A stretch of 64,000 bases of DNA from an uncultured Alphaproteobacteria bacterium (GCA_963829515.1 CAWHIP010000021.1:3614-67613), one strand, 5' to 3'. Positions 47,999-64,000 are shown, numbered from the stretch's first letter. The notes: a model not told the origin generated them from the letters alone. A program made the numbers and translations.

Positions 47999-50101
47999 AT
48001 GAACCAATTCAACCTGAGCTTTACGCCGCTTTTGCCCTGGCCAGTCCTGATCGGCTTCGGACTCGTCGCGCTTTTGCTCGTCGGGCTCTGGCTTTACGCG
48101 CGCCGGCGCGGGGCGCTTTTGCGCGGGCTCGGCTTCGCGCTGCTGATCCTGGCCCTTTGCGATCCGGCCCTGGTGCGGGAAGACCGCGCCGGCTTGAAGG
48201 ATGTCGTCGCCGTCGTCATCGATCGAAGCGGCAGCCAGACCCTCGGCGAGCGGCAGGCGCCAGACCGACAAGGCCAAGGACACGCTCGTAAAGGCACTGA
48301 CCGCGCTCGGCGAAGTAGATGTCCGCGTCATCGAGAGCGGCCGCGCCGACGCCGGAGGCGGACGGCACGCGCCTGTTTTCGGCGCTAAACGCCGGCCTGG
48401 CCGACGCGCCCTCGGAGCGGATCGGCGCGCGTCTTCATGATCACCGACGGGGTCGTCCACGATATACCCGCCAATGTCGAAGCGCTCGGCTTCAAGGCCC
48501 CTCTGCATGCCCTGATCACCGGCCATGAAGGCGAGCGCGACCGCCGGATCGAGCTTCTCGAAGCGCCCCGCTTCGGCATTGTCGGCAAGGATCAGACGAT
48601 CGAACTTAGGGTGATCGACTCGGCCGGCGAGCACCGAGCCGGTGACGCTGCGCGTGCGCCGCGATGGCGCGCCGATCGCGACGCTTGTCGCCGCGCCCGG
48701 CGAGCGCCTTCGCGTGCCGGTCGGAATCGAGCATGGCGGCCCGAATGTCGTCGAGCTGGAGGTTGACGCCCTGCCCGACGAATTGACCGCGATCAACAAC
48801 AAGGCGGTGCTGACGATCACGGGCGTGCGCGACAAGCTCAAGGTTCTGCTCGTCTCCGGCGAGCCCCACGCCGGCGAGCGGATGTGGCGCAATATCTTGA
48901 AGTCGGACGCCAATGTCGATCTGGTCCATTTCACGATCCTGCGTCCGCCGGAAAAGCAGGACGGCACGCCGATCAACGAATTGTCGCTGATCGCCTTTCC
49001 GACCGCCGATCTGTTCGGCCGCAAGATCAGCGAGTTCGATCTCATCGTCTTCGACCGCTATTCGAACCAAAGCGTGCTGCCGCTGATCTATTTCGACAAT
49101 ATCGTCGCATTATGTCCGCGAAGGCGGCGCGCTTCTGCTCGCCGCCGGCCCCGATTTCGCCCGGCCCGAAGGGCTCTTTTTCTCGCCGCTCGGGCGGATC
49201 TCTCCGGCCCGGCCCGACGGCACCCTGACCGAGCGCGCCTTTCGCGCCGCGATCTCCGACGAGGGCGCCAAACATCCGGTGACCCGCGGCCTTCCCGGCG
49301 CGAGATCAGACCCCGCCGGCCTGGAGCCCCTGGTTCCGCCAAGTCAACGCCGAGGTCGCGCGCGGAACCAGCATCCTCTCGGGCGCCGACAAAAAGCCGC
49401 TGCTTGTGCTGTCGCGCGAAGGCAAGGGACGGATCGCGCTGCTTTTGAGCGATCAGATGTGGCTCTGGGCGCGCGGCTTCGAGGGCGGCGGGCCGCATCT
49501 CGATCTCCTCCGCAGGCTCGCGCATTGGCTGATGAAGGAGCCGGAGCTTGAGGAGGAGGCGCTGCGCGCCGCTGTCCACGGCCGCCGGATTGAGATCGAG
49601 CGTCAAAGCCTGCTCCAGGCGATCCCACCGGTCACCGTGACCGCTCCGTCGGGCGCGGCGCAAAGCGTCGCGCTGACGCCGGCCGAGCCCGGCCTTTCAC
49701 GCGCGACATTCGACGCCGAAGAGCTCGGCCTTTATCGGCTGAGCGACGGCGTCCTCTCGGTGCTCGCCAATGTCGGCCCGGAAAACCCGCGGGAGTTTCA
49801 GGAGGTCGTCTCGACGCCCGACAAATTGCGGCCGCTTGCCGAGGCGACCGGCGGAACCGTGCGCCGGATCGCCAATGGGGCTGGCGGCGAAATCACGCCG
49901 CCGCGCCTCGTCGCCATGCGCGAGAGCCCTGTCTATGGCGGGGCGGACTATGCCGCGATCCGACGCACCGGCTCGAGCGAAGTCAAGGGCGTCGGCCTCG
50001 TCCCGCTGGCGATCGGCTTCCTCGGGCTCGCCGCGCTGTTAGGCGGCGTCGCGGCGGCGTGGGTTTTCGAGGGCCGCGGGGCGGCCGGACGGCTGTCCTG
50101 A
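47999..50101 (+). pseudogene. membrane protein with class I glutamine-amidotransferase-like domain; about six frameshifts (decay or assembly error)
   Basis: N-terminal TM pair, VVIDRS.SQ, MITDG, VLLVSGEPHAGERMWR, FTILRPPEKQDGTP and GGGPHLDLLRRLAHWLMKEPELEEE spread across six frame switches. Confidence 0.7.
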
Positions 50102-50288
50102 AGAAAACGGGCTTGGAAGTGTCTCAGAATGAAATTTCCGCGGTGGGTGGTTTTGCGTCGGTCCGCTTCCGGGCCTGCAGTATGGAAAGCGGTCATTCGG
50201 CTTATGGCTTGTGGGCGCACTTCGGAGCATGCATTTGCAGGGATAGATGGAACTCCTCGGCAAGGAGGTCGAGGAGTTCCTCGGATCG

Positions 50289-50920
50289 CTACACCTCCGT
50301 GCCTTCCGCAAGGGCGAGCGCATCCTCTACGTCGACGCCAAGGTATCGAGCGGTGCTTTCGATTTTAGTATGGCCGAGCAATATTTGTACGGCACGCAAG
50401 TTGCCTGTCTGTTTATAGATGATGGATGCCTTGGTTCGGCGAAGCGAATGCGTCCCGTAGTCTTCCCGGCGTAATCCGATCCCGGTTACCCATTCGTCGA
50501 CGAGGCGAGCATATTGCCGCGTGCTGATATGATCGGCGTGATCGATGCGACTTGGAAAGACGAAGTCGTCGAGCGTGCCGCCGCGCCGTTCGAGCCATGC
50601 CAGAATACTGCCGCGAGCAGGTTCAAGGAGCTCGAACTGAACGGGCGCCCGGTCTTCCGCTGAATAACGGTCGCGCGTGTACGAACGCGGCCGCCGCTGA
50701 CGAGGTCGCTGATCTTGACCTTGACAACATCGCACCCGCGGAGCTTGCTGTCGATTGCGAGATCGAACATCGCACGGTCGCGAAGCCGCTGCTCTCGATC
50801 GAGCCAGAACCGGATCGCCCAAACCTGCAGCGGCTTCAGTGCGCGTTTGCCGCCAAGCTTCCGGCCCGCATTCCATGGGCGCCGCTCTTTGGCGCCCGGG
50901 TCGTATTCCGAGTGTCCCAT
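50289..50920 (-). CDS. small (about 210 aa) tyrosine recombinase/integrase, catalytic domain only (frameshift ~50640)
   Basis: PWNAGRK; catalytic R (DSKLRGCD), K (QRKTG), HSLRR, LLGH and Y (STARYLG) split over two frames at CGCCCG. Confidence 0.88.
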
Positions 50921-51054
50921 CGCCCTTCTCCTCTCGGCCCTCATTGGCCAAGAAGAAAACTCGGCGCCATCACGATCGACACCCGAGAGCTGGCGGATAG
51001 CATCCAAACCGCTTTGGGTCAGCAACCTTGAATAGCCGACCTTCTGTTGATCAC

Positions 51055-51340
51055 TAAGTGCATGTTTGATAACGGCTCAGTGAACGATGCGTCGCCATAG
51101 GAGGCTGACGAGAGCGACATGGACCATCGCCTGGAGACGTCGATCCTCTTGTAATAATTGTGGACGAAGTGGCGCCAGTGGGCCATTCAGCCGAACGTGC
51201 GTTCGACGACCCCTCGGCGGCGCAAAACCTCGAAACCGTTCTGGCCGTCGACGCATTTGATGATCTACATCGGAAGCTTAAATCACGCCGGCCAAAAGTC
51301 CGCAATCTCCTCCTCAAACGGTCTTTAGCTGGCCAAGCGC
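51055..51340 (-). pseudogene. degraded IS5-family transposase 3' remnant with its terminal end
   Basis: Minus strand reads GQNGFEVLRRRGVVERTFG*MAHWR...KRIDVS, a decayed version of GFEVLPRRWVVERTFGW, then ...TCAAACATGCACTTA. Confidence 0.7.
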
Positions 51341-51375
51341 AAAATCCGCGCCATCCTCCTGCAAGAGTTTACTTA

Positions 51376-52311
51376 AAGTCGGTCCGTGAACTTCACGCTT
51401 GATTACAAAGTCTTCTGAGCATGAGACGGATGGAGGCAAGGTGCAGAAACGCCAGCGCCTTGCGATTGAGGTTTTCGAAGTCCTTGGCCAGCCTTCGGCA
51501 GCGACCGAGCCATGAGAAGGTTCTTTCGAACACCCATCGGCGAGGCAGCGCCTCGAAACCTTTGACCGCATCCGAACGCTTGACGATCTCGGTGTCGACA
51601 AACGGCAAGGCCTTCTTCTGGGCGTCGCTGAACTGCGGGCCCTGATAGCCGCCGTCTGCAAACAGCTTTTGCAGAAACGGGAATTTCCCGAACATCGTGC
51701 GCAGGACGAGAACGCCGCCATCGCGATCCTGAGTGTCGGCAGGATGAACCAGCGCGTGAAGCAGCAGGCCTATCGTATCGACCAGAATGTGCCGCTTCTT
51801 GCCCTTGATCTTTTTTCCTGCATCGTAGCCATGCGGATCGATGCGACGCCCCCTTTTTCAGCGCTTTTCACGCTCTGGCTGTCGATGACCGCGGCGGTCG
51901 GGCTGGCCTCGCGCCCTGCCGCTTCGCGACACTTCACGTAGAGAGCATGATGGATGCGATCGAGCGTTCCGTCGTATGTCCAAAGATCGAAATAGCCGTA
52001 GACCGTGCTCTTGGGCGGCAAATCCTTGGGGACGGCGCGCCATTGGCAGCCGGTCGAGAGCACATACATCAAGCCGTTCACGACCGCGCGCATCGCGACC
52101 GTGCGTTTCCCTCCGCCCCGCTTCGCAGGTGGGATCAGCGGTTCGACGAGCGCCCACTCCACGTCCGTCACGTCGCTCGGGTAGCGCAATTTGCTACGAT
52201 CGTAGCGCGCGCGATTTTCATTCGTCCACATCGGCGGTCTCCGCGAGAATCAGACCGCCTCATTGAAATCATAAGAGATTCATCCGATTCAACTTGTCTT
52301 CGGACCGACAC
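51376..52311 (-). mobile_element. IS5-family insertion sequence (IS1031/IS427-like), about 0.94 kb
   Basis: Terminal IRs sharing GTCGGTCCG (51378-51386 and 52301-52309) flanked by TAA/TTA; two-ORF DDE transposase. Confidence 0.9.
51393..52231 (-). CDS. IS5 transposase, OrfA/OrfB joined by -1 frameshift at AAAAAGGGGG (~51850-51859)
   Basis: OrfA: YPSDVTD.EW, TGCQWRAVPKD, IDSQSVK. The -1 frame continues GYDAGKKIKGKKRHILVD...ADGGY...RRWVFERTFSWL. Confidence 0.9.
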
Positions 52312-53981
52312 TTAAAATCGCTATCGCTTGTGAATACAGTGGACAGCTCTTCGAGGTCTTCGAAGATCATTGGCTTTCCGATCTTCTCCAGCAGGCCGGC
52401 CCGTTTCAAAAGATCCATGGGTTCGCTGTGCAACTCGGCTATCCCGAATGTAATGCCACGCTCGGCAAACATGCTGCGCACCTCGTCAAGCATTGCCGCC
52501 GCCGTCGAATCCAACTGGACGATGGCGCTGGCGTCGAGCACGAACCAACGCGTATCGGACAAACCGGCCGCGATAGAGGTGAGGCGCGACTTCATATAGT
52601 CAACATTGAAGAAGAGAAGACTGCCCTCGATCAAGCAAATCGCCAGTCCTGGTATCGGTCGCGCTGCCTTCGATCTGTGTATTTTGTAGAAGCCATGTTG
52701 GCCGGGGATGAGGCCAAGCATCGCGTCGCGGGGCCGCATTTCCTTGAGCAGCGTGTACAAGAGGGTCGCCGCTACAGCGATTACGACGCCTTTCAGGACG
52801 CCAAGGCTAATCGGACCGGACATGCCAATGAGCGCGAAGACAAACTCCATCCGGCTGACGCGCCAGATCTCGCGCAGGCCGGCAATATCAATGAGGCCGA
52901 TTGCGGCGGCTACAAGAATCGCTCCGAGGGCCGGAACCGGCAAAACTCGGAGAGCGTCGTTCAAGTATAGGAGCGCCCCCGTAAGAGTGAGGGCCGCAAC
53001 GATGCTCGATATTTGTGTCCTGCCGCCAACGCTCATGTTAATGGCGGTGCGCGAGTCGGAAACGGTCACTGGAAAGCCGCCAAATAACCCCGATGCAATA
53101 TTGGCGGCTCCAAATCCGACGAGTTCCGTGTCAGCGTCCACCGCGAACTTGCCGCGCGCGCCGAAACTGCGCGCTGTGACGATGCCTGAGCCGAAGCTCA
53201 CCAGCCATATCGCCGTCGCATCGAGCAACAGCTCCTTCAAGGGCAAGTTCATCACGTCAGGAAGGGAAAACGTCGGCAGCGATCGAGGCACATTTCCCAC
53301 CACCGCCACGCCCATCTTCTCAAAGTCGAAGATAGCAGAGGCCGCGGCTGCAACCACAACAACGACTATTGGTCCCGGGACCGGTGAACGCCAAAGTGTC
53401 ATGAACTGCAGAATGACGAACATCGCGATTCCGATCATAACGGAAAGCCAGTGGATCGATCCTGCTTTTTGGAAGAGTTCGACGAATGGCGGAAAAAGGC
53501 CATCGGATTCGATCCGTATGCCAGTCAATCGTCCGATCTGACCGACAAGGATCGAAATAGAAACGCCGCCGATGAAGCCGACAAGGATCGGCTTCGACAA
53601 AAAGACGCAGACTATGCCGAGACCGAGCCTGCTCGCGACAATACAGAAGATGCCGACGGCCAACGCGAGCGCGGAAGCCGCGGCGACGCGGTCGGCCGGC
53701 AAATTTATCGAGGCATTCGCGAGTGTGGCGGCCAGAACAGTCATCGTCGGTGCGTCCGGACCAACAATCAGCTGACGCGAGGGACCAAGCAAAGCGTAGC
53801 CGACAAGTGAGAGAATGCTTGAATAAATCCCCACTTCTGGCGGCAGGCCGGCGATCGCCGGATAGGCAATCGCGCTTGGCACGGCTACCGCCGCGACGGC
53901 GAGGCCCGCTGTCGCGTCTCGGCCGAACCACTCGGGCCTGTAGCCGTTAAGGCTCGTCAAGATCCTAAACCGGGCGAACAT
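52269..53981 (-). CDS. SulP/SLC26 anion permease with STAS domain
   Basis: DATAGLAVAAVAVPSAIAY, GLYS-like GIYSS, QLIVGP, NIASGLFGG and C-terminal LDASAIVQLDSTA (STAS). The stop codon lies inside the IS left end. Confidence 0.92.
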   Translation of the reverse strand: MFARFRILTSLNGYRPEWFGRDATAGLAVAAVAVPSAIAYPAIAGLPPEVGIYSSILSLVGYALLGPSRQLIVGPDAPTMTVLAATLANASINLPADRVAAASALALAVGIFCIVASRLGLGIVCVFLSKPILVGFIGGVSISILVGQIGRLTGIRIESDGLFPPFVELFQKAGSIHWLSVMIGIAMFVILQFMTLWRSPVPGPIVVVVVAAAASAIFDFEKMGVAVVGNVPRSLPTFSLPDVMNLPLKELLLDATAIWLVSFGSGIVTARSFGARGKFAVDADTELVGFGAANIASGLFGGFPVTVSDSRTAINMSVGGRTQISSIVAALTLTGALLYLNDALRVLPVPALGAILVAAAIGLIDIAGLREIWRVSRMEFVFALIGMSGPISLGVLKGVVIAVAATLLYTLLKEMRPRDAMLGLIPGQHGFYKIHRSKAARPIPGLAICLIEGSLLFFNVDYMKSRLTSIAAGLSDTRWFVLDASAIVQLDSTAAAMLDEVRSMFAERGITFGIAELHSEPMDLLKRAGLLEKIGKPMIFEDLEELSTVFTSDSDFKCRSEDKLNRMNLL

Positions 53982-54381
53982 TGCGTGAACTCCGGCGCGA
54001 ACTTTCCGCTTAGGCAAATGCGCCCCATCTGAAGGCGCCAGGCGCCTTATCCGCAAATCCAAACATATCTGATGGGGCTCGCGCGCCCACAAGAACCGAC
54101 GCCATTGCGCCAAAATCGGCCGCGCCAGAAGCGCCGACCTGTCCCATACCAGACGCCCATGCAATAGCGGACGCCTACACTATAGCGACCCACCGCTCAG
54201 CATTGGACGCCGTATCCACATTACATACCACGACCACGAATGCCTTATCTGCGATGGGCTACGCCCACCGCAGATGATAGCCATATTCACAGCGACGGCT
54301 GCCTATTCCGCCTCGTCCGCCGAACCGCACAAAATCGCATGGTCATTGACATGGCCCAACTTACTTGGGTCGCTGCCGAAT

Positions 54382-55038
54382 TCAGGGCCGATCGCTAATC
54401 GACCAGGGGGCTGCGTCGGCGTTCGAAGTCTGCTTGTGAAAAGACGATCTCGCCAAGAGCTTCGAAACGCCGCGCCCTGACTGCTCGAGGCAGGCCAGCG
54501 CGTCTCGGTAAGAAATATTGAGAGGAGTGATGAGGTCGGCGCTGACAATCTGCACCACTCCCGACGAAGGGTCAGGCGCACCAGGCATAAAGACGACAGC
54601 TTGGCCATCATTGAACGAGTCGGCAAGGAAGCCAACCTGCCATCCATTGTTCATGCGCAGCAGGACCGGCTTGAGGTCTTCCTTGGTCCTTGCCTCCAAC
54701 CCCGCCAAGCGATCAGTGTATTTACGAAGGGCGACGTAGGGAGGCAGTTTATTTAGGACCTTGTCTTCAAGGAAAGATGCCGCGTCCTTCTCAATTTTGA
54801 AAGAACGCACGATAAGCCCAGCAGTGAAGGCCACCAGCACAAGTAAAAAACTCCCGACCACATAAACGCCGAGAACCGCCTCGCCTTTTGAAATTGGCAG
54901 CCTTTCCGCGAGTGGCATCGCGGAATCGATAGCCATCTTGCCCGCCTTGACGATAATAAGGAAAACCGCAGCGAAGGGGAGCAAGAAGATAGCTCCGCCG
55001 ACCACCGTGGTTTTCACAAAGTCGAAAATTGGCCTCAT
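54382..55038 (-). CDS. DUF502-family membrane protein
   Basis: KTTVVGGAIFLLP, LNKLPPY and VVFMPGAPDPSSG. Confidence 0.8.
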   Translation of the reverse strand: MRPIFDFVKTTVVGGAIFLLPFAAVFLIIVKAGKMAIDSAMPLAERLPISKGEAVLGVYVVGSFLLVLVAFTAGLIVRSFKIEKDAASFLEDKVLNKLPPYVALRKYTDRLAGLEARTKEDLKPVLLRMNNGWQVGFLADSFNDGQAVVFMPGAPDPSSGVVQIVSADLITPLNISYRDALACLEQSGRGVSKLLARSSFHKQTSNADAAPWSISDRP

Positions 55039-55279
55039 GGCGCCCTGCGTCCTTGGCGAAACCTGTTTTCCTTATAAGCGCAAAACACCCGCCCCCATGC
55101 GCTACCCCGACTTTTGGCGAAAATATGTCGCGCCTTCGCCCCGAAACATCCTAGCCCCAAAGGGCGTCATCGATGAAGCTAAATGCTCTAGAGTGGCTGC
55201 CGGCCCTCGCCCGCAGCCACTTGATTCACTCGACGCTCATTATAAACCCGCCACGCTCGGCGGCCATCATCTTCGCGGA

Positions 55280-55513
55280 TCAGTAGCTGTGGCGACGGGC
55301 TGTCCGGCGCGCGGTGCGGCGCACCACACGACGGGCGTAAAGCGCTTTTTCCACGAAGCTGTTGGATGCAACGAAGCCGTTGGACGCAACAATTTCCGTG
55401 CAGGCTCGCGAATAGTTCGCTGGAGCAGCCGCTTGAGCGTGGGAGCCGAGCCCTATTGCTAGCGCCGCACCTAACGCCACGGCAGCAAATCCGTGAACCG
55501 TCATCATTCTCAT
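55280..55513 (-). CDS. small secreted protein with Arg-rich tail
   Basis: Signal peptide ending HAQA; VASNGF/VASNSF 18-bp duplication; ARRVVRRTARRTARRHSY. Confidence 0.6.
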   Translation of the reverse strand: MRMMTVHGFAAVALGAALAIGLGSHAQAAAPANYSRACTEIVASNGFVASNSFVEKALYARRVVRRTARRTARRHSY

Positions 55514-55659
55514 CGCAAACTTCCTCCGTTTAAGGCATTCATTAATGGCAACGCGTGAAAGATCATGCCTGTGGGCGCGCATTTATGAAGGACCGCGCCC
55601 GGGTCTTGTCTCCGCCGCAGTCTTGTCGAAGCTTTTGAATTCTTCGCCCTCGCTAAGCG

Positions 55660-56133
55660 CTACTCAACAATTCCCCGCGCGTAGCCGCCGTAGACCTTGC
55701 AGGAGCAACCGGTCCCAAGCCAACCCGGCTCATAGAGCAAGCACGTCTTCACGGGCGTCGCGCAATAATTTCCGGAGTCCGCCGTGGCGGAGACTGCAAC
55801 GCTTCGGCCTGTCATCAGAGGCGCGGTCGCGAGGCCCGCTAACCCGACTCCATATCCATAAGTATAGGGGTAGCCGTAAGCATAGTAGGGCGCGCGCCAA
55901 CCACGGTGCCAGCCGTAATGGCGCCAGCCATGGTGCCTCCAGCCATAGTGCCTCCAGCCTGGGCGCCAGCCGAAGTGCCTATAGTGATGCCGATAGACAT
56001 AGTGGGCTTGCTCGATCTGTGTTGGCGGAGTTATAACATTCGAGCTCGACACGCTCATAGGACCCGCTGTAGCGGTGGCGGCGAACGCGAACATAGCGGT
56101 TCCGGATATGATTGTAATTCTTTTAATATCCAT
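55660..56133 (-). CDS. secreted protein with WRHxG repeats and C-terminal 4-Cys domain
   Basis: GGAGG RBS; signal peptide; GWRHYGWRHHGWRHYGW; YCATPVKTC...GCSC. Confidence 0.75.
   Translation of the reverse strand: MDIKRITIISGTAMFAFAATATAGPMSVSSSNVITPPTQIEQAHYVYRHHYRHFGWRPGWRHYGWRHHGWRHYGWHRGWRAPYYAYGYPYTYGYGVGLAGLATAPLMTGRSVAVSATADSGNYCATPVKTCLLYEPGWLGTGCSCKVYGGYARGIVE
55909..55980. repeat. coding tandem repeat of about 15 bp (CCAGCCrt.gtgcct) x5
   Basis: Units start at 55909, 55924, 55939, 55954 (12 bp) and 55966. Confidence 0.85.
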
Positions 56134-56732
56134 AACACACCTCCTATGAGGCTATTCAACAGCTCCGGTGGGGGTCAAAGAAAAAGCCTCATTTATTTCG
56201 AACGTCGCATTCTGTGGTTGGTTCCAGTTTGGTTTGCATGTCGTTTTTTGGCCATTCGTCGCAAGAAGGACAGGCGAACGGGTGCCGTTGAAGGGAATCT
56301 GGCTGTCCGGATACGGCTTCGTCAGGTTAATTGGCTATGAGCAATTGGACGGGTAGTCTGTCGGGCGGGCCGCTGCCTCCTACTGGCTACAGGCCTCATC
56401 GTTTTCCAGCCAGTTCATCGCCCGCGCCGTGTGGCTGTGCTCCGGTTTGTGTGCTTCGGTTTTCTGTTCAGTCTGCGTTTGGTTGAGGACATTTTCGCTC
56501 AAGTGTGGGATCGTCCTCTCTTGCGAAACGGTTCGAAGCTACTCGACGACTTTGTCGGAGCGCGGCAGGGAAAGCGATAACTCGGCTGCCCGCGGGGCTA
56601 TGGAGCGTGGATGCGCTTGAAGCCGCCAGCGGTATCCCGCACGCCTGAGCCCCCACAACATTCCTTACGTGCTCGCTTTTCTTTGGCGCACATCCCCAAC
56701 TTCTGTTGGGCGGCAATCTCTTCGCCGATATT

Positions 56733-57584
56733 TCATGTGGATGACCATTCCAACTCCGGCACGAGCTTATAGGGATAGTTCGATTCTTCGTAGCCGTGGG
56801 GTTTCTTCCGCTTTGGCAGTTTCGGCTTGTCTCGAGGCAGGTCTTGGTAGGGGATCTGCGAAAGCAGATGCGTGATGATATTGAGGCGCGCGCGCTTCTT
56901 GTCGTCCGATCGCGCGACGTGCCAAGGCGCCCATGGCGTGTCCGTCGCTTGGAACATATCGTCGCGGGCGCGGGAATAATCATACCAGCGCTCATAGGAC
57001 TTCAGATCCATCGGCGATAGTTTCCAAATCTTGCGCGGGTCGTTGATGCGCCCCTCCAGGCGGCGCGTCTGCTCTTCGGAGCTCACTTCCAGCCAATATT
57101 TGATGAGTATGATGCCGGAGTCGACGATCGCCTTCTCCATTTCCGGCGCGACCTCTAGGAAACGCTTGACCGTTTCCATCGAGCAAAACTCCATGACCCG
57201 CTCGACGCCGGCGCGATTGTACCAGCTTCGATCGAAAATCACGATCTCGCCCGCGGCGGGCAGATGCGGCACGTAGCGCTGCATATACATCTGCGACTTT
57301 TCTCGGTCGGTCGGCGCGGGCAGCGCGACGACGCGAAAGATGCGCGGACTCACGCGCTCCGTGATCGCCTTGATGACGCCGCCTTTGCCCGCGCCGTCTC
57401 GACCTTCGAACAGGACGCATATTTTAAGGCCCTTATGCACGACCCAAATCTGAAGCTTGACAAGCTCGGCGTGCAAACGGGCAAGCTCCCGCTCGTAAAC
57501 TTTGTTGCTCAGCTTGGCCTGAAGAGCCCGCTCGTCTTCGCCATACGTCTCGCAACGCTTTTTGTGATCATTTGTTGCGTTCAT
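56733..57584 (-). CDS. ppk2: polyphosphate kinase 2
   Basis: FEGRDGAGKGG, YMQRY, FDRSWYNRAGVERVM, WKLSPMD and SDDKKRARLN. Confidence 0.95.
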   Translation of the reverse strand: MNATNDHKKRCETYGEDERALQAKLSNKVYERELARLHAELVKLQIWVVHKGLKICVLFEGRDGAGKGGVIKAITERVSPRIFRVVALPAPTDREKSQMYMQRYVPHLPAAGEIVIFDRSWYNRAGVERVMEFCSMETVKRFLEVAPEMEKAIVDSGIILIKYWLEVSSEEQTRRLEGRINDPRKIWKLSPMDLKSYERWYDYSRARDDMFQATDTPWAPWHVARSDDKKRARLNIITHLLSQIPYQDLPRDKPKLPKRKKPHGYEESNYPYKLVPELEWSST

Positions 57585-57639
57585 CGGTTTCTCTCCGCTT
57601 GGATCTTTACAACATAGGCGCGCGTGCCTAGTAAAGTAG

Positions 57640-58908
57640 ATGAGGGCTCGGATGCTGCGGCTCGAAGGGGCAGCCTTCGCCAGCCGGCCGAAACAAGGAC
57701 AGCTGTCGGCCGGATTTTCGGTTTCCGGCGGGACGCCGAGACCGCGCGACCGACGCAGGAGGCCCGTCTTGACCATTCGTCGTCCCGCCGCTGCAGGGCT
57801 CGCCTTTTTGATCGGCGTTTGGGTTGTGCTTCCCTGGACGGGCGACGGCGGACAATCGGGCGACGACGCGTTCGTTTCCTCAGCTCGAGCGAAGACCCCG
57901 ATCCGCAATTTGATCGCGCGGTTGCGCGGCGAGAAGCTGCCCGTAAGCATCGCCAAGACGAACGGCCGGATCGAAGCCACCCAAGTCGACGTCTCATCCA
58001 AATATGCCGGGCGCTTGGCCGAGGTCATGGTGGAGGAAGGCTCCAGCGTTACGCAAGGCCAAATCATCGCAAGGGTCTTCTCGCCGGAATATGAAGCTCA
58101 GTTGCGCGCGGCCCAAGCCGATGTGCAGCGCGCCAAGGACGCGCTCATTGCCGCTGAAGCCGAAATTGTTTCGCGACAAAGCGCTCTCGAGTTCGCCAAA
58201 TCAGACTACCAGCGCGGACAAGAGCTCATGAAGACCGGGACCATCACAAAGCAGGTCTTCGAGCAGCGCAAACGAAATTATGATGCGGCCAAGTCCGCGG
58301 TGAAGAGCTTCACCTCGCAGCGCGATCAGGCCAAGTCCTCGATCAAGAACGCGGAGGCCGAGGTCGAGCGGATCGAGTCGATCATTCAGGACCTCACGCT
58401 CACATCGCCCAGAAGCGGACGGGTACAATATCAGCTCGCGCGCGCGGGCGAGGTGGTCGCTGCGGGCGCGCCGATCGCGACCATCCTTGACCTTTCCGAC
58501 GTCTACATGACCATTTTCCTGCCTGCCTCGGTCGCAGGCAAGCTCGAAATCGGCGCCGAAGCGCGCATCGTCCTCGACGCGGCGCCGGATTATATCATTC
58601 CGGCGTCCGTGAGTTTCGTGGCCTCCGACGCGCAGTTCACGCCGAAGACTGTCGAAACCAAGGACGAACGCACGAAGCTCATGTTCCGCGTCAAGCTGAA
58701 GCTCGATCCGCAGGTCCTGCAGAAATACCACACAAAGGTGAAGACGGGGCTACGCGGCATGGGCTTCGTCCGCACGGACCCATCGACGCCTTGGCCGGAG
58801 GACCTTCAGATCAAGCTTCCTGCGGTCAAAGCGTCCAAACCCGAGCCCCCTGAAGCCGCGGTTCCTGAGGCCAAGGCTCGCGGCTCCAAGCCTCGCAGCG
58901 TCAAATGA
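57640..58908 (+). CDS. HlyD-family membrane fusion protein (YhiI-like); start uncertain
   Basis: TNGRIEA, biotinyl-like halves and FTPKTVETKDERTKLMFRVK. Confidence 0.9.
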   Translation: MRARMLRLEGAAFASRPKQGQLSAGFSVSGGTPRPRDRRRRPVLTIRRPAAAGLAFLIGVWVVLPWTGDGGQSGDDAFVSSARAKTPIRNLIARLRGEKLPVSIAKTNGRIEATQVDVSSKYAGRLAEVMVEEGSSVTQGQIIARVFSPEYEAQLRAAQADVQRAKDALIAAEAEIVSRQSALEFAKSDYQRGQELMKTGTITKQVFEQRKRNYDAAKSAVKSFTSQRDQAKSSIKNAEAEVERIESIIQDLTLTSPRSGRVQYQLARAGEVVAAGAPIATILDLSDVYMTIFLPASVAGKLEIGAEARIVLDAAPDYIIPASVSFVASDAQFTPKTVETKDERTKLMFRVKLKLDPQVLQKYHTKVKTGLRGMGFVRTDPSTPWPEDLQIKLPAVKASKPEPPEAAVPEAKARGSKPRSVK

Positions 58909-61649
58909 CTAAGGAGTTTGTCGCCCGGGTCGCGAATGTGGCGCACCGCTATGGCGCGTCTGTCGCGCTCGATGGCGTCACCATCGACATACCCGCGCGA
59001 ATCATGGTGGGCGTCATCGGGCCGGACGGCGTAGGCAAATCGACTTTGCTGGCGTTGATAGCAGGCGTCCGAAAAATGCAGCAGGGCGAGATCCTCGTTT
59101 TCGACGGCGACGTCGCCGATCCCGACCATCTTTGGGACATTCGCGGCCGGATCGCCTACATGCCGCAAGGCCTCGGCCGCAACCTCTATCCAACGCTGAG
59201 CGTGTTCGAGAACATCGATTTTTTCGGCCGTCTTTTCGGACAAGGCGCAGACGAGCGGCGCGGCCGAATCACCGAACTTCTTACCGCGACCGGCATGGAG
59301 AAGTTCGAGGGCCGGCCGGCGGGCAAGCTTTCCGGCGGCATGAAGCAGAAGCTCAGCCTCTGCTGCGCGCTCATCAACGATCCGGATCTTCTCATCCTCG
59401 ACGAGCCGACGACCGGCGTCGATCCGCTGTCGCGCGGTCAGTTCTGGGACCTTATCAACAGCATCCGCGCGCGACGCCCGCAAATGAGCGTCATTGTCGC
59501 CACCGCTTATATGGACGAAGCCGAGCGCTTCGACTGGCTGATGGCGATGGACGACGGCAAAATCATCGCCACCGGCGCGTTGAAGGAGCTTCTTGCGAAG
59601 ACCGGCGAGCCCAATCTCGACGAGGCGTTCATTGCGCTGATGCCTGAGGCCAAACGCGCTTTGCACAAGAAGGTCGTCGTTCGTGCGCGCGTGGCTTCGC
59701 CCGACGAGACTCCGGCGATCGAGGCGGAGGGCTTGACGCGGCAGTTCGGCGACTTCATCGCGGTCGATCACGTGAGCTTCAAGATCGCCCGTGGCGAGAT
59801 CTTCGGCTTTCTCGGCTCCAACGGATGCGGCAAGTCGACGACAATGAAAATGCTGACCGGGTTCCTGCCCGCGACCAGCGGCTGGGCGAAGCTGTTTGGC
59901 CAGCCGATGGGGTCGAGCGACATGGAGGCAAGGCGCAACGTCGGCTACATGACCCAGGCCTTCTCGCTCTACGGCGAGCTCACGGTTGGACAAAATCTGG
60001 AGCTGCACGCACAGCTCTATCACTTGCCAAAAGAAAAAATTGCGGGACGAATCAAAGACCTCCTGGACCGTTACGACCTGAAGGCCGTCGTCAACGCCCG
60101 GCCGGATAGCCTGCCGCTCGGCATAAAGCAGAGGCTTCAGCTCGCCGTCGCGGTTTTGCACGAACCGGCGATTCTCATTCTCGACGAGCCGACGTCGGGC
60201 GTCGATCCGATCGCGCGCGATTCGTTCTGGCGCACGCTTATCGATCTCTCGCGCGACGACGGGGTGACGATTTTCGTTACGACCCACTTTATGAACGAGG
60301 CGGAGCGCTGCGACCGCATTTCGCTCATGCATGCGGGTAAGGTGCTCGCCGTCGGTCCGCCGCTGGAACTCGTCAAGGAACACGGCAGCAACTCGCTCGA
60401 AGATTGCTTCGTCGGATATCTCGCGGACGCAGCCGGGATAGATCGCTCGAAAAAGTGCGAGGCCGCGGCGGCCGGACCCGGAGCCGCCGAGACGGAGCCT
60501 CTTGCGCCGCCGAGGCGCTTCGATCTCGCGCGTCTCTGGGCCTATGCGCGTCGCGAAACGGTCGAGCTCCTGCGCGATCCGATACGCATGGCCTTCGCCG
60601 TCGTCGGTCCGATCATCCTCATGTTCGCTTTCGGCTTCGGCATCTCCTTCGACATTGAGAACCTTCAGACCGCCGCTTTCGACCAGGACGACACGCCGCA
60701 GAGTCGCGAATTGCTGCAAGGATTTGAGGGCTCCCGCTACTTTTCTGTTCAACCGCCGATCGCTTCCGCCGAAGAGATGGAGCGGCGACTGAAAAGCGGC
60801 AACACGCAGATCGTGGTGGAGGTGCCCCCAGGCTTCGGCCGCGATCTTTTGAGTAGGCGGCGACCAGAGATCGATGCGACGGTCGACGGCGCCATGACCT
60901 TTCGCGGCGAAACCGCGAAGAACTACGTCTCCGGCGTCGTAAGCAAGCAGGGTGAGGAGCTTCAGCGTCGGCAGCGTCGACCTGGAACGGCGAATGCCTG
61001 GAGCGCCGACAATATCGAAACCAGGTTCCGCTACAATCAGGCCTTCCTCAGCGTGAACGCCATGGTGCCGAGCGTTTTCATGCTGATGCTATGCCTGATC
61101 CCGGCGATCATGTCGGCGATTGCGGTGGTGCGCGAAAAGGAGACCGGCTCGATCGCCAATTTCCGCTCGACCCCGATCACCAAATTCGAGTTCCTGATCG
61201 GTAAGCAGCTCCCCTATGTCGCCGTCGCGATGATGAATTTCGTCGTCCTGTTTCTCATGGCGATCTTCGTTTTTCGCGTGCCGATCAAGGGGCCATTCCT
61301 CACTTTGCTGATCGGGACCTTCGTCTATGTTTTTGCGACGACGGGCTTTGGCCAGCTGATTTCGTCCTTTGTGCGCACCCAGGTCGCAGCCGTCTTCGCG
61401 ACGGCGATCCTTTCGATCGTTCCGGCGGTGAATTTCTCCGGGCTGTTCGCGCCGGTCTCTTCCCTGTCCGGCGGCGCAAGGATCCTGGGGCTGTCTTTCC
61501 CGTCGGCCTGGTATCAACCGATCACGGTCGGGGTGTTCGCCAAGGCGCTCGGGATGCTCGACCTTTGGCGCAACGTCGCCGCGATCACAATCATCGCGCT
61601 CGCCTTCCTCGTCCTGTCGCTTCGCCTCTTGAGCAAACAGGAAGCGTGA
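58905..61649 (+). CDS. rbbA: RbbA/YhiH-type double ABC ATPase fused to ABC-2 permease
   Basis: GPDGVGKS, LSGGMKQK, LDEPTTGVDP, GSNGCGKS, LPLGIKQR and the membrane domain VVREKETGS. Confidence 0.92.
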   Translation: MTKEFVARVANVAHRYGASVALDGVTIDIPARIMVGVIGPDGVGKSTLLALIAGVRKMQQGEILVFDGDVADPDHLWDIRGRIAYMPQGLGRNLYPTLSVFENIDFFGRLFGQGADERRGRITELLTATGMEKFEGRPAGKLSGGMKQKLSLCCALINDPDLLILDEPTTGVDPLSRGQFWDLINSIRARRPQMSVIVATAYMDEAERFDWLMAMDDGKIIATGALKELLAKTGEPNLDEAFIALMPEAKRALHKKVVVRARVASPDETPAIEAEGLTRQFGDFIAVDHVSFKIARGEIFGFLGSNGCGKSTTMKMLTGFLPATSGWAKLFGQPMGSSDMEARRNVGYMTQAFSLYGELTVGQNLELHAQLYHLPKEKIAGRIKDLLDRYDLKAVVNARPDSLPLGIKQRLQLAVAVLHEPAILILDEPTSGVDPIARDSFWRTLIDLSRDDGVTIFVTTHFMNEAERCDRISLMHAGKVLAVGPPLELVKEHGSNSLEDCFVGYLADAAGIDRSKKCEAAAAGPGAAETEPLAPPRRFDLARLWAYARRETVELLRDPIRMAFAVVGPIILMFAFGFGISFDIENLQTAAFDQDDTPQSRELLQGFEGSRYFSVQPPIASAEEMERRLKSGNTQIVVEVPPGFGRDLLSRRRPEIDATVDGAMTFRGETAKNYVSGVVSKQGEELQRRQRRPGTANAWSADNIETRFRYNQAFLSVNAMVPSVFMLMLCLIPAIMSAIAVVREKETGSIANFRSTPITKFEFLIGKQLPYVAVAMMNFVVLFLMAIFVFRVPIKGPFLTLLIGTFVYVFATTGFGQLISSFVRTQVAAVFATAILSIVPAVNFSGLFAPVSSLSGGARILGLSFPSAWYQPITVGVFAKALGMLDLWRNVAAITIIALAFLVLSLRLLSKQEA

Positions 61650-61650
61650 G

Positions 61651-62835
61651 ATGGCGTCGCTCCCGGCCCAACCCACGCCCCGTCTCGCGGAAGCGAAGCC
61701 GCTGACGTTCGCCGCTCATGTCGTCAACATCTTCCGCCTCGTGATCAAGGAATTGCGCAGCATCCGGGCCGATCCGACGATGTTGATCCTCGTCGTTTAC
61801 GCGTTCAGCATCTCCGTCAACACGGTCGCCACCGGGGCGGTGACCGAAGCGACCAATCTCTCGGTGGGCGTCGTGGACGAGGACGGCTCGGACCTGTCGC
61901 GGCAGATCGCCGAGGGGCTGAGGCGCCCGACCTTCCAGCCGCCCGTGCAGATCACGGCGTCGGAGATCGACCCGATGATGGATCAGGGCAAGCTCCTCTT
62001 CGTCGTCGAGATCCCGCCCAATTTCGAGGCCGATATCCGCGCCCAGCGCAAGACTGGCATCCAGATCAATGTGGACGCGACGGCGGTCGCTCAGGCCGGC
62101 AATGGCGCGAGTTATCTGAGGACAGCGATCGCCAACGAGATCCAGGGATTTATCGCCGGCAAGGAGGGCTCGAAGGCGATGCCGATCAATCTCGTCTTGC
62201 GCGCGGCTTTCAATCCGAACCTGAAGACCGCCTGGTTCTCGGCGATGACGCAGGTCATCAACCAAATCACGCTCCTCACCGTCATCCTGACCGGCGCCGC
62301 CCTCATCCGCGAGCGCGAGCAGGGCACGGTCGAGCATCTCCTCGTCATGCCCGTCGTGCCGACGGAGATCATGCTGGCGAAGATGATCGCCAACGGCCTC
62401 GTCATCCTGGTCGCGGCGATGTTTTCGCTGCAATTCGTCGTGCATTGGTGGATCGGATCGCCGATCGCCGGCTCCTTGCTGCTGTTCCTGCTCGGCGCGG
62501 CGATCTACGCCCTTGTCGTGGCCGCGCTCGGCATCATGCTCGGAACGCTGACGACGACGATGGGCCAGTTTGGATTGCTGGCCATGCCGGTGCTGATGGT
62601 CACGCAACTGCTTTCCGGCAGCAGCACGCCGATGGAAAGCATGCCGGTCTGGCTTCAGCACGTCATGCAGACGATCAGCCCAACGCCGCATTTCGTCTCC
62701 TTTTCGCAGGCGGTGCTGTTTCGCGGCGCCGACGTCACGCTCGTCTGGCGTCCGCTCATTGCGATGATCATCATCGGCGCGGTCTATTTCGCCGTGGCGG
62801 CGCGCCGTTTCCGTCGGGTGATCTTCGGAGGCTGA
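61651..62835 (+). CDS. YhhJ-like ABC-2 permease
   Basis: GAALIREREQGTVEHLLVMP and LSGSSTPMESMP. Confidence 0.9.
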   Translation: MASLPAQPTPRLAEAKPLTFAAHVVNIFRLVIKELRSIRADPTMLILVVYAFSISVNTVATGAVTEATNLSVGVVDEDGSDLSRQIAEGLRRPTFQPPVQITASEIDPMMDQGKLLFVVEIPPNFEADIRAQRKTGIQINVDATAVAQAGNGASYLRTAIANEIQGFIAGKEGSKAMPINLVLRAAFNPNLKTAWFSAMTQVINQITLLTVILTGAALIREREQGTVEHLLVMPVVPTEIMLAKMIANGLVILVAAMFSLQFVVHWWIGSPIAGSLLLFLLGAAIYALVVAALGIMLGTLTTTMGQFGLLAMPVLMVTQLLSGSSTPMESMPVWLQHVMQTISPTPHFVSFSQAVLFRGADVTLVWRPLIAMIIIGAVYFAVAARRFRRVIFGG

Positions 62836-63214
62836 CGCCGGCTGCAGGGGCACCGTCGCGGGCGATCAAGCCACGCTGTGTTGTCTATTTCCATCAACAA
62901 GGGCCAAGCTTTGTGCGGCAAAAGCGTATTGCTGATAATACTCTCGCTAGGCTTGACGCTAGTCCAGGGTGCGCGTCGCGTTTGAAATCGGCTATCGTCC
63001 GTTTGATGGCCCAAATGGCCGCAAGCGGTCATGACGAAAGGAGCGTGAGGGCGGACTGTCTCCTGTGTGGGGGCTCCGGCCAAGGCGGACATTCGCACCG
63101 GAGTGCTGCACGAGGTAAGTCGGGGGATCAAGTTCGGGGTACGAAAATCTTGATTTTCGCAAGCGTCCATTCCATTGCAGGGAATCCATGAAGCCTTGAA
63201 TTGCGAGTATCGAA

Positions 63215-63685
63215 ATGGCGGCGACGGCAGTAGAGGCAATCAATCATTTCATCAAAGCCAGAGGCTTTCGAGAAGGGGAAACCTTTTTATTCGCGTCTCT
63301 TCAAATCCGCTATCCTCACCAAGACGAGTTGCGCGCCGTTTTGAAGCAGATGGGCGAAGATGGTGTGATCGAACAAACCTCTGAAGGCTCTTACAAAATG
63401 ACGATGGCCGGATATGTCAAATTCTTTGGCGCGCCGCCGTCGGAAGACGATACGATCCAGGCGATCATGACCGAAATCGGCGCGCGCGGCGTCAAGGTCG
63501 GAAAATCATTCATTTGGGCGCCCGTGCAAGAGAGCCTGGTCCTCAAACGCTTTCGCGATGGCGACCTCAAACCAGCTTTGGAAAAAATCTTGACGAACCG
63601 ATGGCTGGAAAATGCCTCAATGCCAGGTTTCTACAGGCTGACGGACGCTGGTTTTAAGGCACTCAACACCGGCAACGCCGAGTAG
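63215..63685 (+). CDS. hypothetical protein with two internally repeated winged-helix-like units
   Basis: Unit 1: IKARGFREGE...G.IE...SYKMTMAG. Unit 2: IGARGVKVGK...WLE...FYRLTDAG. Confidence 0.7.
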   Translation: MAATAVEAINHFIKARGFREGETFLFASLQIRYPHQDELRAVLKQMGEDGVIEQTSEGSYKMTMAGYVKFFGAPPSEDDTIQAIMTEIGARGVKVGKSFIWAPVQESLVLKRFRDGDLKPALEKILTNRWLENASMPGFYRLTDAGFKALNTGNAE

Positions 63686-64000
63686 CGAAGATTTTACCCT
63701 GAGGTGGCAAAGCTACCGTTTCGAAGGGCGATCGCCGCTCGGCGTCATAAATCGTTCAAATCGCGCGTACTTCGAGACGGGCTCGGCGGACAGGTCGAGG
63801 CGGAAGAGCGCAGTGTGCTTTTTTTTTGCAAAGCCGCTTCATTGCAAAAATCTTGAACTGCGCACCATTCAAGGTCTGCTTTCTGGAACGATTGGCACGC
63901 CAGTCTATGGCCATGTTGGGTCGAAAGCCGAAATTCAAACTGACCCGCCACCATGAGCTTTGCGCCGCCGCTTTAGCCGGTCTCGTCCCCCGCCTCCGAA

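What the first reader, a model, noticed from the sequence alone, without database searches (positions are those of the whole stretch)
50115..63952. 13.8-kb island with a minimal tyrosine recombinase and inverted boundary motifs
Seen: left end GGAAGTGTCTCAGAATGAAATTTCCGC (50115-50141) aligns with the reverse complement of the right end, GGTGGCGGGTCAGTTTGAA-TTTCGGC (63952-63927), at 18 of 27 positions. Host-like sequence lies outside both ends: a stop codon at 50101, and a probable minus-strand gene end near 63971. No tRNA or direct-repeat att site is visible. The recombinase is only ~210 aa, keeps R-K-H-R-H-Y and lacks N-terminal arm/core-binding domains. Known: catalytic-domain-only tyrosine recombinases such as FimB/FimE act on short inverted sites. 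Inference: a mobile or invertible element class defined by GGnnGnGnnTCAGnnTGAA ends and this small recombinase family, which I cannot match to a named element.
Basis: partly seen in the sequence, partly recalled or inferred. Interest (0 to 1): 0.68.

Follow-up and report, generated by a model that had tools for sequence, protein, structure and literature searches.

The report
Cargo transposon with IS1-type ends
The 13.8-kb island is real and its inverted end motifs are genuine, but they are the terminal repeats of an IS1-family transposon lineage that ferries cargo genes in Methylocapsa. The small tyrosine recombinase inside it is a broken passenger, not the engine.

Summary
The 18/27 pairwise match is not above chance by itself.

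The two ends belong to a repeat family. The consensus GGTAGTGTCTCAGTTTGAA occurs as inward-facing pairs in 53 of 58 Methylocapsa genomes, and a reversed control pattern gives 0. Pairs bracket 0.04 to 20 kb of cargo.

Of 20 pairs tested, 16 have flanking 8-bp direct repeats matching at 6/8 or better. Displaced control flanks reach at most 4/8. Copies that carry a transposase, including a 3.4-kb one in this genome, encode an IS1-family DDE enzyme and have perfect repeats and 8/8 duplications.

The island spans 50115-63952 and has these ends plus a 6/8 duplication (ACGGGCTT/ATGAGCTT). It lacks a transposase. I read it as a very large non-autonomous IS1-type cargo element.

The 210-aa recombinase is frameshifted. 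It occurs in only 11 of 58 genomes of the genus. It belongs to a very large, horizontally spread family.

One link is unexplained. The roughly 70-nt inner part of the left end also lies 126 nt downstream of intact copies of this recombinase in Methylobacterium. Earlier scan notes on other DNA proposed cassette sites for this recombinase. I could test that idea only partly.

The parts
50107..50114 (.). Left copy of the putative 8-bp target-site duplication, ACGGGCTT
   Evidence: It matches ATGAGCTT at 63953-63960 at 6 of 8 positions. Displaced control flanks match at 2/8.
50115..50211 (+). Left ('A') end. It consists of an IS1-type terminal inverted repeat (50115 to about 50137, GGAAGTGTCTCAGAATGAAATTT) plus a conserved subterminal module of about 70 nt containing a hairpin (GTCCGCTTCC...GGAAAGCGGTC).
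   Evidence: There are 7 full copies in the genome, with nhmmer E-values from 1e-13 to 1e-24. A copy also lies at the left border of the related island in M. aurea. The inner module is found 3' of recombinase genes in Methylobacterium.
50212..50991 (-). Conserved cassette of about 780 bp carrying the small recombinase. This is the only stretch shared at nucleotide level among the recombinase copies in the genus.
   Evidence: blastn and MAFFT against 18 loci.
50249..50280 (.). 13-6-13 palindrome GGAACTCCTCGGC-AAGGAG-GTCGAGGAGTTCC, lying 9 nt 3' of the recombinase stop codon
   Evidence: The only other good copy in the genome lies beside the second recombinase on C13. Distant homologues have a hairpin at this position but with a different sequence.
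50289..50920 (-). Pseudogene of a 210-aa catalytic-domain-only tyrosine recombinase, with a -1 frameshift near 50645
   Evidence: An intact 210-aa homologue exists in M. aurea.
51372..52314 (-). IS5-family insertion sequence (DUF4096 transposase, two frames), a recent secondary insertion
   Evidence: Three other copies in the genome are 99.7-99.9% identical. The site is empty in M. aurea contig 18. Pfam result.
52269..54164 (-). SulP-family anion permease with a STAS domain (longest ORF; the true start is probably near 53981)
   Evidence: Pfam PF00916 at 3e-85 and PF01740.
54382..55038 (-). 218-aa membrane protein with no family match
55280..56133 (-). Two small predicted secreted proteins: 100 aa, and 157 aa with GWRH repeats
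   Evidence: Both are partly conserved in the closest relative, G006.
56733..57581 (-). Polyphosphate kinase 2
   Evidence: Pfam PF03976 at 6e-96.
57640..62835 (+). Operon of an HlyD-type adaptor, a fused double-ATPase/ABC-2 permease, and an ABC-2 permease
   Evidence: Pfam. A paralogous operon lies in the second island on C13.
63215..63685 (+). 156-aa orphan protein. It lies outside the block shared with M. aurea, which ends at about 62877.
63823..63952 (-). Right ('B') end. It consists of an IS1-type terminal inverted repeat (63952 to about 63930 on the minus strand, GGTGGCGGGTCAGTTTGAATTT) plus a B-type subterminal stretch.
   Evidence: It shares the exact 29-mer TCAGTTTGAATTTCGGCTTTCGACCCAAC with the end at C5:479962. 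See also the B-end alignment. It was the best hit in a restricted nhmmer search, E 0.02. An orthologous but degraded copy lies beside ruvB in G006.
63953..63960 (.). Right copy of the putative 8-bp target-site duplication, ATGAGCTT

Best explanation
Window 50115-63952 is a non-autonomous cargo element of an IS1-family transposon lineage. In ISfinder terms it resembles a very large mobile insertion cassette or transporter IS.

Its two ends carry the lineage's terminal inverted repeats. The consensus is GGTAGTGTCTCAGTTTGAA, which fits the IS1 signature GGnnnTG. Each repeat is followed by a conserved subterminal module of about 100 nt, called A on the left and B on the right.

An IS1-family DDE transposase supplied in trans would bind both repeats, cut, and insert the whole unit with an 8-bp staggered cut. 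Such an enzyme is encoded by an intact 3.4-kb sister element on contig 18 of the same genome. That mechanism would leave the imperfect ACGGGCTT/ATGAGCTT duplication seen here.

The cargo is a mosaic of a frameshifted small tyrosine recombinase, a later IS5-family insertion, a SulP permease, PPK2, an HlyD/ABC exporter and small orphan genes.

Shown: the end family, the target duplications, the transposase family of the autonomous copies, presence/absence of small members at orthologous sites, and the broken recombinase.

Inferred: that this particular 13.8-kb copy moved as one unit, and that the contig-18 enzyme can act on it.
For: 1. Inward-facing end pairs occur throughout the genome and genus. 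The 20-mer gives 24 hits against 1 in a shuffled genome. The motif is in 53 of 58 genomes, against 0 for a reversed control. In the window only 50118(+) and 63951(-) match.
2. The target-duplication test gave 16 of 20 pairs at 6/8 or better, with 6 perfect. Displaced controls reach at most 4/8. The island scores 6/8 at zero offset, against 2/8 for its control.
3. The autonomous copies are G000:C18:13509-16904, L078, L080 and L081. All have perfect 22-nt repeats and 8/8 duplications. Their ORF passes the Pfam DDE_Tnp_IS1 cut-off (32.9 against 24.1 bits). Its best NCBIfam hit is transpos_IS1. Homologues on plasmids are annotated 'IS1 family transposase'.
4. A published table copied from ISfinder gives 8-9 bp direct repeats and GGnnnTG ends for the IS1 family (PMC10425158).
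5. Small members are missing from orthologous sites in G006, G041 and G043. Identical cargo appears at other loci in other genomes.
6. A related island in M. aurea has the same A end in a different chromosomal context.
7. The IS1-type transposase is in 35 of 58 genomes. The small recombinase is in 11 of 58.
Against: - The right repeat is degraded: GGTGGCG rather than GGnnnTG. The left repeat has a 2-nt indel, and the duplication is only 6/8.
- No empty site exists for this island. In G008, G004 and G023 the left-flank gene and ruvB lie 0.2-1.1 Mb apart or on different contigs, and each has another neighbour there. A rearrangement could therefore have joined two ends from different insertions.
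- The closest relative, G006, has the right end and the PPK2-ABC part but lacks the left end, the recombinase and SulP.
- At 13.8 kb the island is far larger than IS1-family elements recorded in ISfinder. From memory, these reach about 4.6 kb in the ISMhu11 group.
- In M. aurea the shared block sits inside a different A...B shell. Cargo therefore enters these shells by some second route that transposition does not explain.
- Trans-mobilisation is not tested.
Confidence: 0.62

Rival explanations
1. The shell and the cargo have separate histories. An ordinary small A...B element of about 1.2 kb (A end, the 156-aa gene, B end) was inserted next to ruvB by IS1-type transposition. The 12.7-kb block at 50212-62877 entered it later, just inside the A end. 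The route was homologous or site-specific recombination, possibly by the block's own recombinase, whose gene and palindrome lie at the block's extreme left end.
For: - The block shared with M. aurea ends at about 62877, short of the 156-aa gene and the B end.
- In M. aurea the block lies inside a shell that also exists without it, as the 5.2-kb element G000:C5:438912-444126.
- Typical family members are 0.8-1.6 kb with one gene.
- Homology among recombinase cassettes begins at 50212, directly after the A end.
- At one locus G000 and G041 carry different cargo between the same ends.
Against: - The block is not a fixed unit. Its order differs between G000 and M. aurea, since segment 54336-56236 lies on the other side of the recombinase there.
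- No repeated site was found at the block's right border. The palindrome occurs only beside the two recombinase genes.
- In M. aurea about 930 bp separate the A end from the block.
Confidence: 0.25
2. The A and B modules are recombination sites of the 210-aa recombinase, and the elements are cassettes exchanged by it. This is integron-like, as earlier scan notes proposed for other bacteria. On this view the resemblance of the outer repeats to IS1 ends is secondary.
For: - The inner part of the A end, about 70 nt, lies at a fixed 126 nt downstream of intact recombinase genes in nine Methylobacterium loci. It also lies 3' of the recombinase gene in an Acetobacteraceae MAG and a Demequinaceae MAG.
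- A B-like segment lies about 100 nt upstream of some of these genes.
- Both recombinase copies in G000 and both full copies in M. aurea lie within 14 kb of an A end and are transcribed towards it.
- Cargo is usually one gene, as in integron cassettes.
Against: - 8-bp target duplications are the mark of DDE transposition, not of tyrosine recombination.
- Copies with perfect ends encode an IS1-family transposase and no recombinase.
- 53 of 58 genomes have the ends, but only 11 of 58 have the recombinase.
- Only 11 of 80 recombinase loci from other genera show the A module just 3' of the gene.
- In the window the module has the opposite orientation relative to the gene.
Confidence: 0.1
3. There is no element. 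The two motifs are unrelated solo repeats or a chance match, and the low-GC stretch is ordinary variable DNA.
For: The two flanks are not neighbours in other species.
Against: The right end shares an exact 29-mer with other element ends. The orientation is correct and inward-facing. No other copies of the motif occur in the 64-kb window. The flanks match at 6/8.
Confidence: 0.03

Closest known systems
IS1 family insertion sequences (ISfinder), including members with passenger genes
   Same: GGnnnTG-type terminal inverted repeats of about 20 nt and 8-bp target duplications. The autonomous sister copies encode a DDE transposase matching PF03400 and NF033558.
   Different: The island has no transposase. 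It is 13.8 kb against 0.7-1.2 kb for classical IS1. It carries conserved subterminal modules of about 100 nt. The single-ORF transposase of the sister copies is only distantly related to E. coli IS1 InsAB.
Mobile insertion cassettes (MICs), MITEs and transporter ISs (defined in PMC3129680; Tn3-type MICs in Xanthomonas, PMC4337579)
   Same: IS-type inverted repeats bracket passenger genes without a transposase. A cognate transposase is present elsewhere in the genome. Presence varies between genomes.
   Different: The parent family is IS1, not IS231 or Tn3. The size range is very wide, from 39 bp to about 20 kb. Different cargo sits in the same shell at the same locus.
Integrase-bearing genomic islands at tRNA genes
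   Same: Low-GC accessory block with a tyrosine recombinase gene at one extreme end, next to a structured repeat of about 95 nt.
   Different: No tRNA and no direct-repeat att sites. The recombinase is broken and lacks arm- and core-binding domains. The ends are inverted and have a target duplication.
FimB/FimE-type invertases and integrons (IntI, attI, attC)
   Same: The recombinase is about 200 aa and consists of the catalytic domain only, as in FimB/FimE. Small single-gene cargo units recall integron cassettes.
   Different: The match to the invertase model is very weak (E 0.004, 16.7 bits against a 222-bit cut-off). There is no short invertible segment, no IntI insertion and no attC array. 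The mobility marks are those of transposition.

Membership tests
IS1 family (element or derivative) | Terminal inverted repeats beginning GGnnnTG | tested here: met
   The left end is GGAAGTG. The right end is GGTGGCG, one base off. The family consensus is GGTAGTG in 15 or more copies. The signature is taken from PMC10425158, Table 8.
IS1 family (element or derivative) | 8-9 bp direct target duplication | tested here: inconclusive
   The island scores 6/8 (ACGGGCTT/ATGAGCTT) against 2/8 for its control. The family as a whole is clear: 16 of 20 pairs score 6/8 or better, and 6 are perfect.
IS1 family (element or derivative) | Encodes an IS1-family DDE transposase | tested here: not met
   No transposase of this family lies in 50115-63952. 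The only transposase there is that of the nested IS5-family element. Sister copies encode one: C18:14956-15822, and L078 at 32.9 bits against the 24.1 cut-off of PF03400.
IS1 family (element or derivative) | Size 0.74-1.18 kb (to about 4.6 kb in the ISMhu11 group, from memory) | tested here: not met
   13,838 bp.
Mobile insertion cassette or non-autonomous IS derivative | IS-type inverted repeats around passenger genes, no transposase, cognate transposase elsewhere in the genome | tested here: met
Mobile insertion cassette or non-autonomous IS derivative | Demonstrated mobility (filled versus empty orthologous sites) | tested here: inconclusive
   Shown for small members of the family. No empty site could be found for this island, because its flanks are not neighbours in other species.
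Tyrosine recombinase (Phage_integrase, PF00589) | Catalytic domain with R, K, HxxR, H and Y | tested here: met
   PF00589 at 1.8e-13 on the C-terminal part. The residues can be read in P0003 and P0002. It aligns to XerD residues 125-282.
Integrase-driven genomic island | Intact integrase plus direct-repeat att sites, usually at a tRNA or tmRNA gene | tested here: not met
   The gene is frameshifted. There is no tRNA. No direct repeat of the A end's 3' part lies at the far end.
FimB/FimE-type invertible switch | Short inverted repeats flanking a small invertible promoter segment beside the recombinase; membership of the invertase family | tested here: not met
   The inverted repeats are 13.8 kb apart and of IS1 type. 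The NF007371 match is only 16.7 bits against a cut-off of 222.
Integron | IntI with its specific insertion, attI, and an array of attC-bounded cassettes in direct orientation | tested here: not met
   The integron-integrase models score 16-23 bits against cut-offs of 265-435. No repeated site occurs at internal junctions.

The most novel reading that the evidence does not exclude
The A and B subterminal modules of about 70-110 nt are the recognition sites of the widespread 210-aa 'mini' tyrosine recombinase. That enzyme would load and swap cargo blocks inside IS1-type shells. The result would be a two-tier system, with a recombinase for capture and a transposase for spread, comparable to an integron riding in a Tn402-type transposon but built from unrelated parts.
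Probability: 0.1. Interest if true: 0.75.

Novelty: new variant of a known kind. Interest (0 to 1): 0.45.

Why it matters
It turns an unexplained island into a testable case of IS1-family ends moving 14 kb of transporter and phosphate-metabolism genes. That is well beyond the size usually credited to this family.

It also shows that Methylocapsa genomes hold dozens of one-gene cargo units in the same shells. These methanotrophs are important in peat and upland soils. Such units are missed by annotation pipelines, which look for a transposase or an integrase.

The finding warns against crediting an island to the nearest 'integrase' gene.

The unexplained co-occurrence of the A module with a recombinase family of more than 8000 sequence clusters gives a concrete starting point for finding that enzyme's sites.

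Tried and rejected
- **Empty site for the island.** The left-flank gene and ruvB are not adjacent in G008, G004 or G023. G006 breaks its contigs inside the region. No empty site could be obtained.
- **Tn3-type ends.** No Tn3-family transposase is in the genome, and the duplication is 8 bp rather than 5 bp.
- **A known RNA at the left end.** Rfam gives nothing in 49900-64000 at E up to 1 apart from a spurious IRES hit.
- **The 13-6-13 palindrome as a repeated recombination site.** Only the two copies beside recombinase genes exist in the genome. The other intergenic palindromes in the island have unrelated sequences. In distant homologues the hairpin keeps its position but not its sequence, which is more like a terminator.
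There are 2 + 2 occurrences in 15 kb and they are not at module junctions.
- **Plasmid dimer-resolution role for the recombinase.** On three plasmids it lies between cargo modules, not beside rep or par genes.
- **A direct-repeat att site at the far end.** A shared 10-mer, AAGCGGTCAT, occurs near 63023, but it is not significant and nhmmer does not detect it.
- **Literature.** I found no paper describing this recombinase family or IS1-type cargo elements of this kind.


Full report
**What is at the coordinates**

The window is contig 21 (3614-67613) of a 3.66-Mb, 62% GC genome in 23 contigs. A recombinase hit on a 63,783-bp Methylocapsa aurea contig, the same length as G023:C18, places the genome in the genus Methylocapsa.

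The left flank is the 3' end of a gene conserved across the genus, with its stop at 50099-50101. The right flank is ruvB on the minus strand, with its stop at 63973-63975. No tRNA is predicted in the window. GC content falls from 65-68% to 55-62% inside the region.

The genes in order are:
- a frameshifted small tyrosine recombinase
- an IS5-family IS
- a SulP permease
- a 218-aa membrane protein
- two small secreted proteins
- PPK2
- HlyD, a fused ABC ATPase-permease and an ABC-2 permease
- a 156-aa orphan

**The pairwise match is weak, but the ends are real**

Between the two ends, the best ungapped inverted 27-mer match is 16/27. Of 300 random window pairs 13.8 kb apart, 22% do as well and 1.3% reach 18. 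The repeat finder lists 185 inverted pairs in this 16-kb stretch.

The evidence changed when I searched the whole genome. The left end is the first part of a 95-nt repeat with seven full copies. I call this the A end.

The right end shares the exact 29-mer TCAGTTTGAATTTCGGCTTTCGACCCAAC with another locus. It belongs to a second family of ends of about 110 nt. I call this the B end.

A and B share about 20 nt in inverted orientation, with the consensus GGTAGTGTCTCAGTTTGAA. A 20-mer with up to 4 mismatches hits the genome 24 times and a shuffled genome once. Nearly all hits form inward-facing A(+)...B(-) pairs 0.8-5 kb apart. Two pairs are long: the window's at 13.8 kb, and one on contig 13 at 12.4 kb. 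In the window only 50118(+) and 63951(-) match.

**What kind of ends they are**

Across the genus the 19-mer, with up to 2 mismatches, occurs in 53 of 58 genomes. The reversed control pattern occurs in none. Hits usually form inward-facing pairs 0.04-4 kb apart.

Most pairs enclose one or a few ordinary genes and no transposase. Examples are ArsR with an SRPBCC protein, a serine hydrolase, a GFA-family protein and a TPR protein.

Several pairs of 2.3-4 kb contain an ORF of about 295 aa. It passes Pfam's DDE_Tnp_IS1 cut-off (32.9 against 24.1 bits), and its best NCBIfam hit is transpos_IS1. Its plasmid homologues are annotated 'IS1 family transposase'.

This genome has an intact copy at C18:13509-16904, with perfect 22-nt repeats.

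I then tested target duplications. I compared the 8 nt outside each repeat for 20 pairs. Sixteen scored 6/8 or better: six were 8/8 and seven were 7/8. Flanks displaced by 12 nt never exceeded 4/8. All four transposase-bearing copies scored 8/8.

ISfinder's description of the IS1 family, as reproduced in PMC10425158 Table 8, gives GGnnnTG ends and 8-9 bp direct repeats. The ends here read GG(T/C/A)A(G/A)TG. This is therefore an IS1-family lineage with many non-autonomous, cargo-carrying derivatives. ISfinder calls such objects MITEs, mobile insertion cassettes and transporter ISs (PMC3129680).

**Mobility of the family**

- The 1.3-kb element at C5:187893-189221 is missing between conserved flanks in G006 and G041.
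- The 0.8-kb element at C5:479187 is missing in G041 and G043.
- The cargo of the C5:542970 element occurs at 87-92% identity at other loci in four genomes. At its own locus G041 carries 3.7 kb of different cargo between the same ends.
- One genome has a 39-bp perfect palindrome made of two repeats with nothing between them. Its flanks match at 7/8.

**The island itself**

The island has an A end at 50115-50211 and a B end ending at 63952. Its 8-nt flanks, ACGGGCTT and ATGAGCTT, match at 6/8 at zero offset, against 2/8 for the control. It contains no IS1-type transposase. I therefore read it as a very large non-autonomous member of the family.

This reading has four limits.

1. No empty site exists. 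In G008 and G023 the left-flank gene is followed by homologues of G000:C3:879 kb. ruvB is followed by homologues of C5:597 kb. The G000 arrangement therefore involves at least one other rearrangement.
2. G006, at 88% identity, joins the left-flank gene directly to about 55302. It is then colinear through 62664 and lacks the A end, the recombinase and SulP. It does have a degraded B end beside ruvB.
3. M. aurea carries most of the block (50213-62877, at 81-93% identity, mostly above the roughly 82% of the flanking core genes) on another contig, behind an A end. There segment 54336-56236 lies on the other side of the recombinase.
4. That M. aurea shell also contains cargo which, in G000, forms a separate 5.2-kb A...B element. 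Blocks therefore enter these shells by a second route. The shell here may originally have been a small A, 156-aa gene, B unit.

**The recombinase**

Reading across the -1 frameshift near 50645 gives 210 aa with R, K, HxxR, H and Y. An intact copy in M. aurea has the same length. It aligns only with the catalytic half of XerC, XerD and XerH.

The family is very large. The family occurs in 447 PLSDB plasmids.

In the genus it is patchy, in 11 of 58 genomes, and often lies at contig ends. Nucleotide homology between copies is confined to about 50212-50991.

A 13-6-13 palindrome lies 9 nt after the stop codon. Its only other good copy lies beside the second, TAG-interrupted recombinase on contig 13. 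In distant homologues the hairpin keeps its place but not its sequence.

On three plasmids the gene lies between cargo modules. Nothing here shows that it acts on the island's ends.

**An unexplained link**

Earlier scan notes on other genomes proposed that this recombinase works on short palindromic sites at cargo junctions. I treated these notes as leads.

In 80 recombinase loci from other genera, the inner part of the A end lies 126 nt downstream of the stop codon in nine Methylobacterium loci. This part is about 70 nt and reads TTTCCGC..TGGGTGG..GTCCGCT-loop-AAGCGG.CAT. It also lies 3' of the gene in an Acetobacteraceae MAG and a Demequinaceae MAG.

A B-like segment lies about 100 nt upstream of the gene in four of the loci. 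The IS1 repeat itself is not seen there.

The orientation relative to the gene is opposite to that in the window. Sixty-nine of the 80 loci show nothing near the gene.

This is compatible with a shared lineage-specific block, or with a real functional tie. I rate the functional reading at about 0.1.

**Verdict**

The object is a new variant of a known kind: an IS1-family cargo element of unusual size with conserved subterminal modules. It is of moderate interest.

Noticed in passing
G000:C13:49985-62385 (locus L023:1-12390): A second, paralogous A...B island of 12.4 kb. It carries DUF3141 genes, an HlyD/ABC/ABC-2 operon 65-71% identical to the window's, a second small recombinase interrupted by a TAG codon, and a YkuD L,D-transpeptidase. 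Its B end has lost the terminal repeat.
   Followed up: partly
L114, L127-L130, L143, L154:4756-4836; L121:4905-4985; L153:4779-4860; L088:788-873: The inner part of the A end, about 70 nt, lies at a fixed distance (126 nt) 3' of intact small-recombinase genes in Methylobacterium. It also lies near the gene in an Acetobacteraceae MAG and a Demequinaceae MAG. B-like segments lie about 100 nt 5' of some of these genes.
   Followed up: partly
L066:321-359 (G016:C119:2220-2258): A 39-bp perfect palindrome made of two IS1-type terminal repeats with no interior. Its 8-nt flanks match at 7/8. It is either a minimal MITE or the footprint of one.
   Followed up: partly
window 51372-52314: A 943-bp IS5-family IS with three other copies at 99.7-99.9% identity (two on C3, one on C18). 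The site is unoccupied in M. aurea contig 18, so this is a recent insertion.
   Followed up: yes
L078, L080, L081; G000:C18:13509-16904: The autonomous IS1-family elements carry passenger genes that look like defence or toxin-antitoxin parts, including a SocA/Panacea-domain protein and an AbiEii-like AAA ATPase.
   Followed up: partly
L052:1972-3263 versus L065:186-3943 (G041:C2): At one orthologous locus two species have the same A and B ends but different cargo. G000 has a 1.3-kb twin-arginine secreted protein. G041 has 3.7 kb holding a pentapeptide-repeat protein, a nucleotidyltransferase and an IS1182-like transposase.
   Followed up: partly
L019:4556-4640 (G006:C322) and dozens of G000 loci, e.g. 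C21:83723-83802 and C21:68722-68794: A separate, very abundant dispersed repeat of about 80 bp (REP-like, more than 60 copies at 75-96% identity) appears throughout the genome. One copy lies just beyond the window's right end.
   Followed up: no
window 49406-50101 and 63973 onward; L014-L017: The left-flank gene and ruvB lie on different contigs in G023 and 0.2-1.1 Mb apart in G008 and G004. Each has its own conserved neighbour in G008 and G023. The G000/G006 lineage therefore has rearrangement breakpoints at or near the island.
   Followed up: partly
G000:C5:445280-445693: A full-length (430-aa ORF) tyrosine integrase lies 1.2 kb outside the A end of the 5.2-kb element C5:438912-444126.
   Followed up: no
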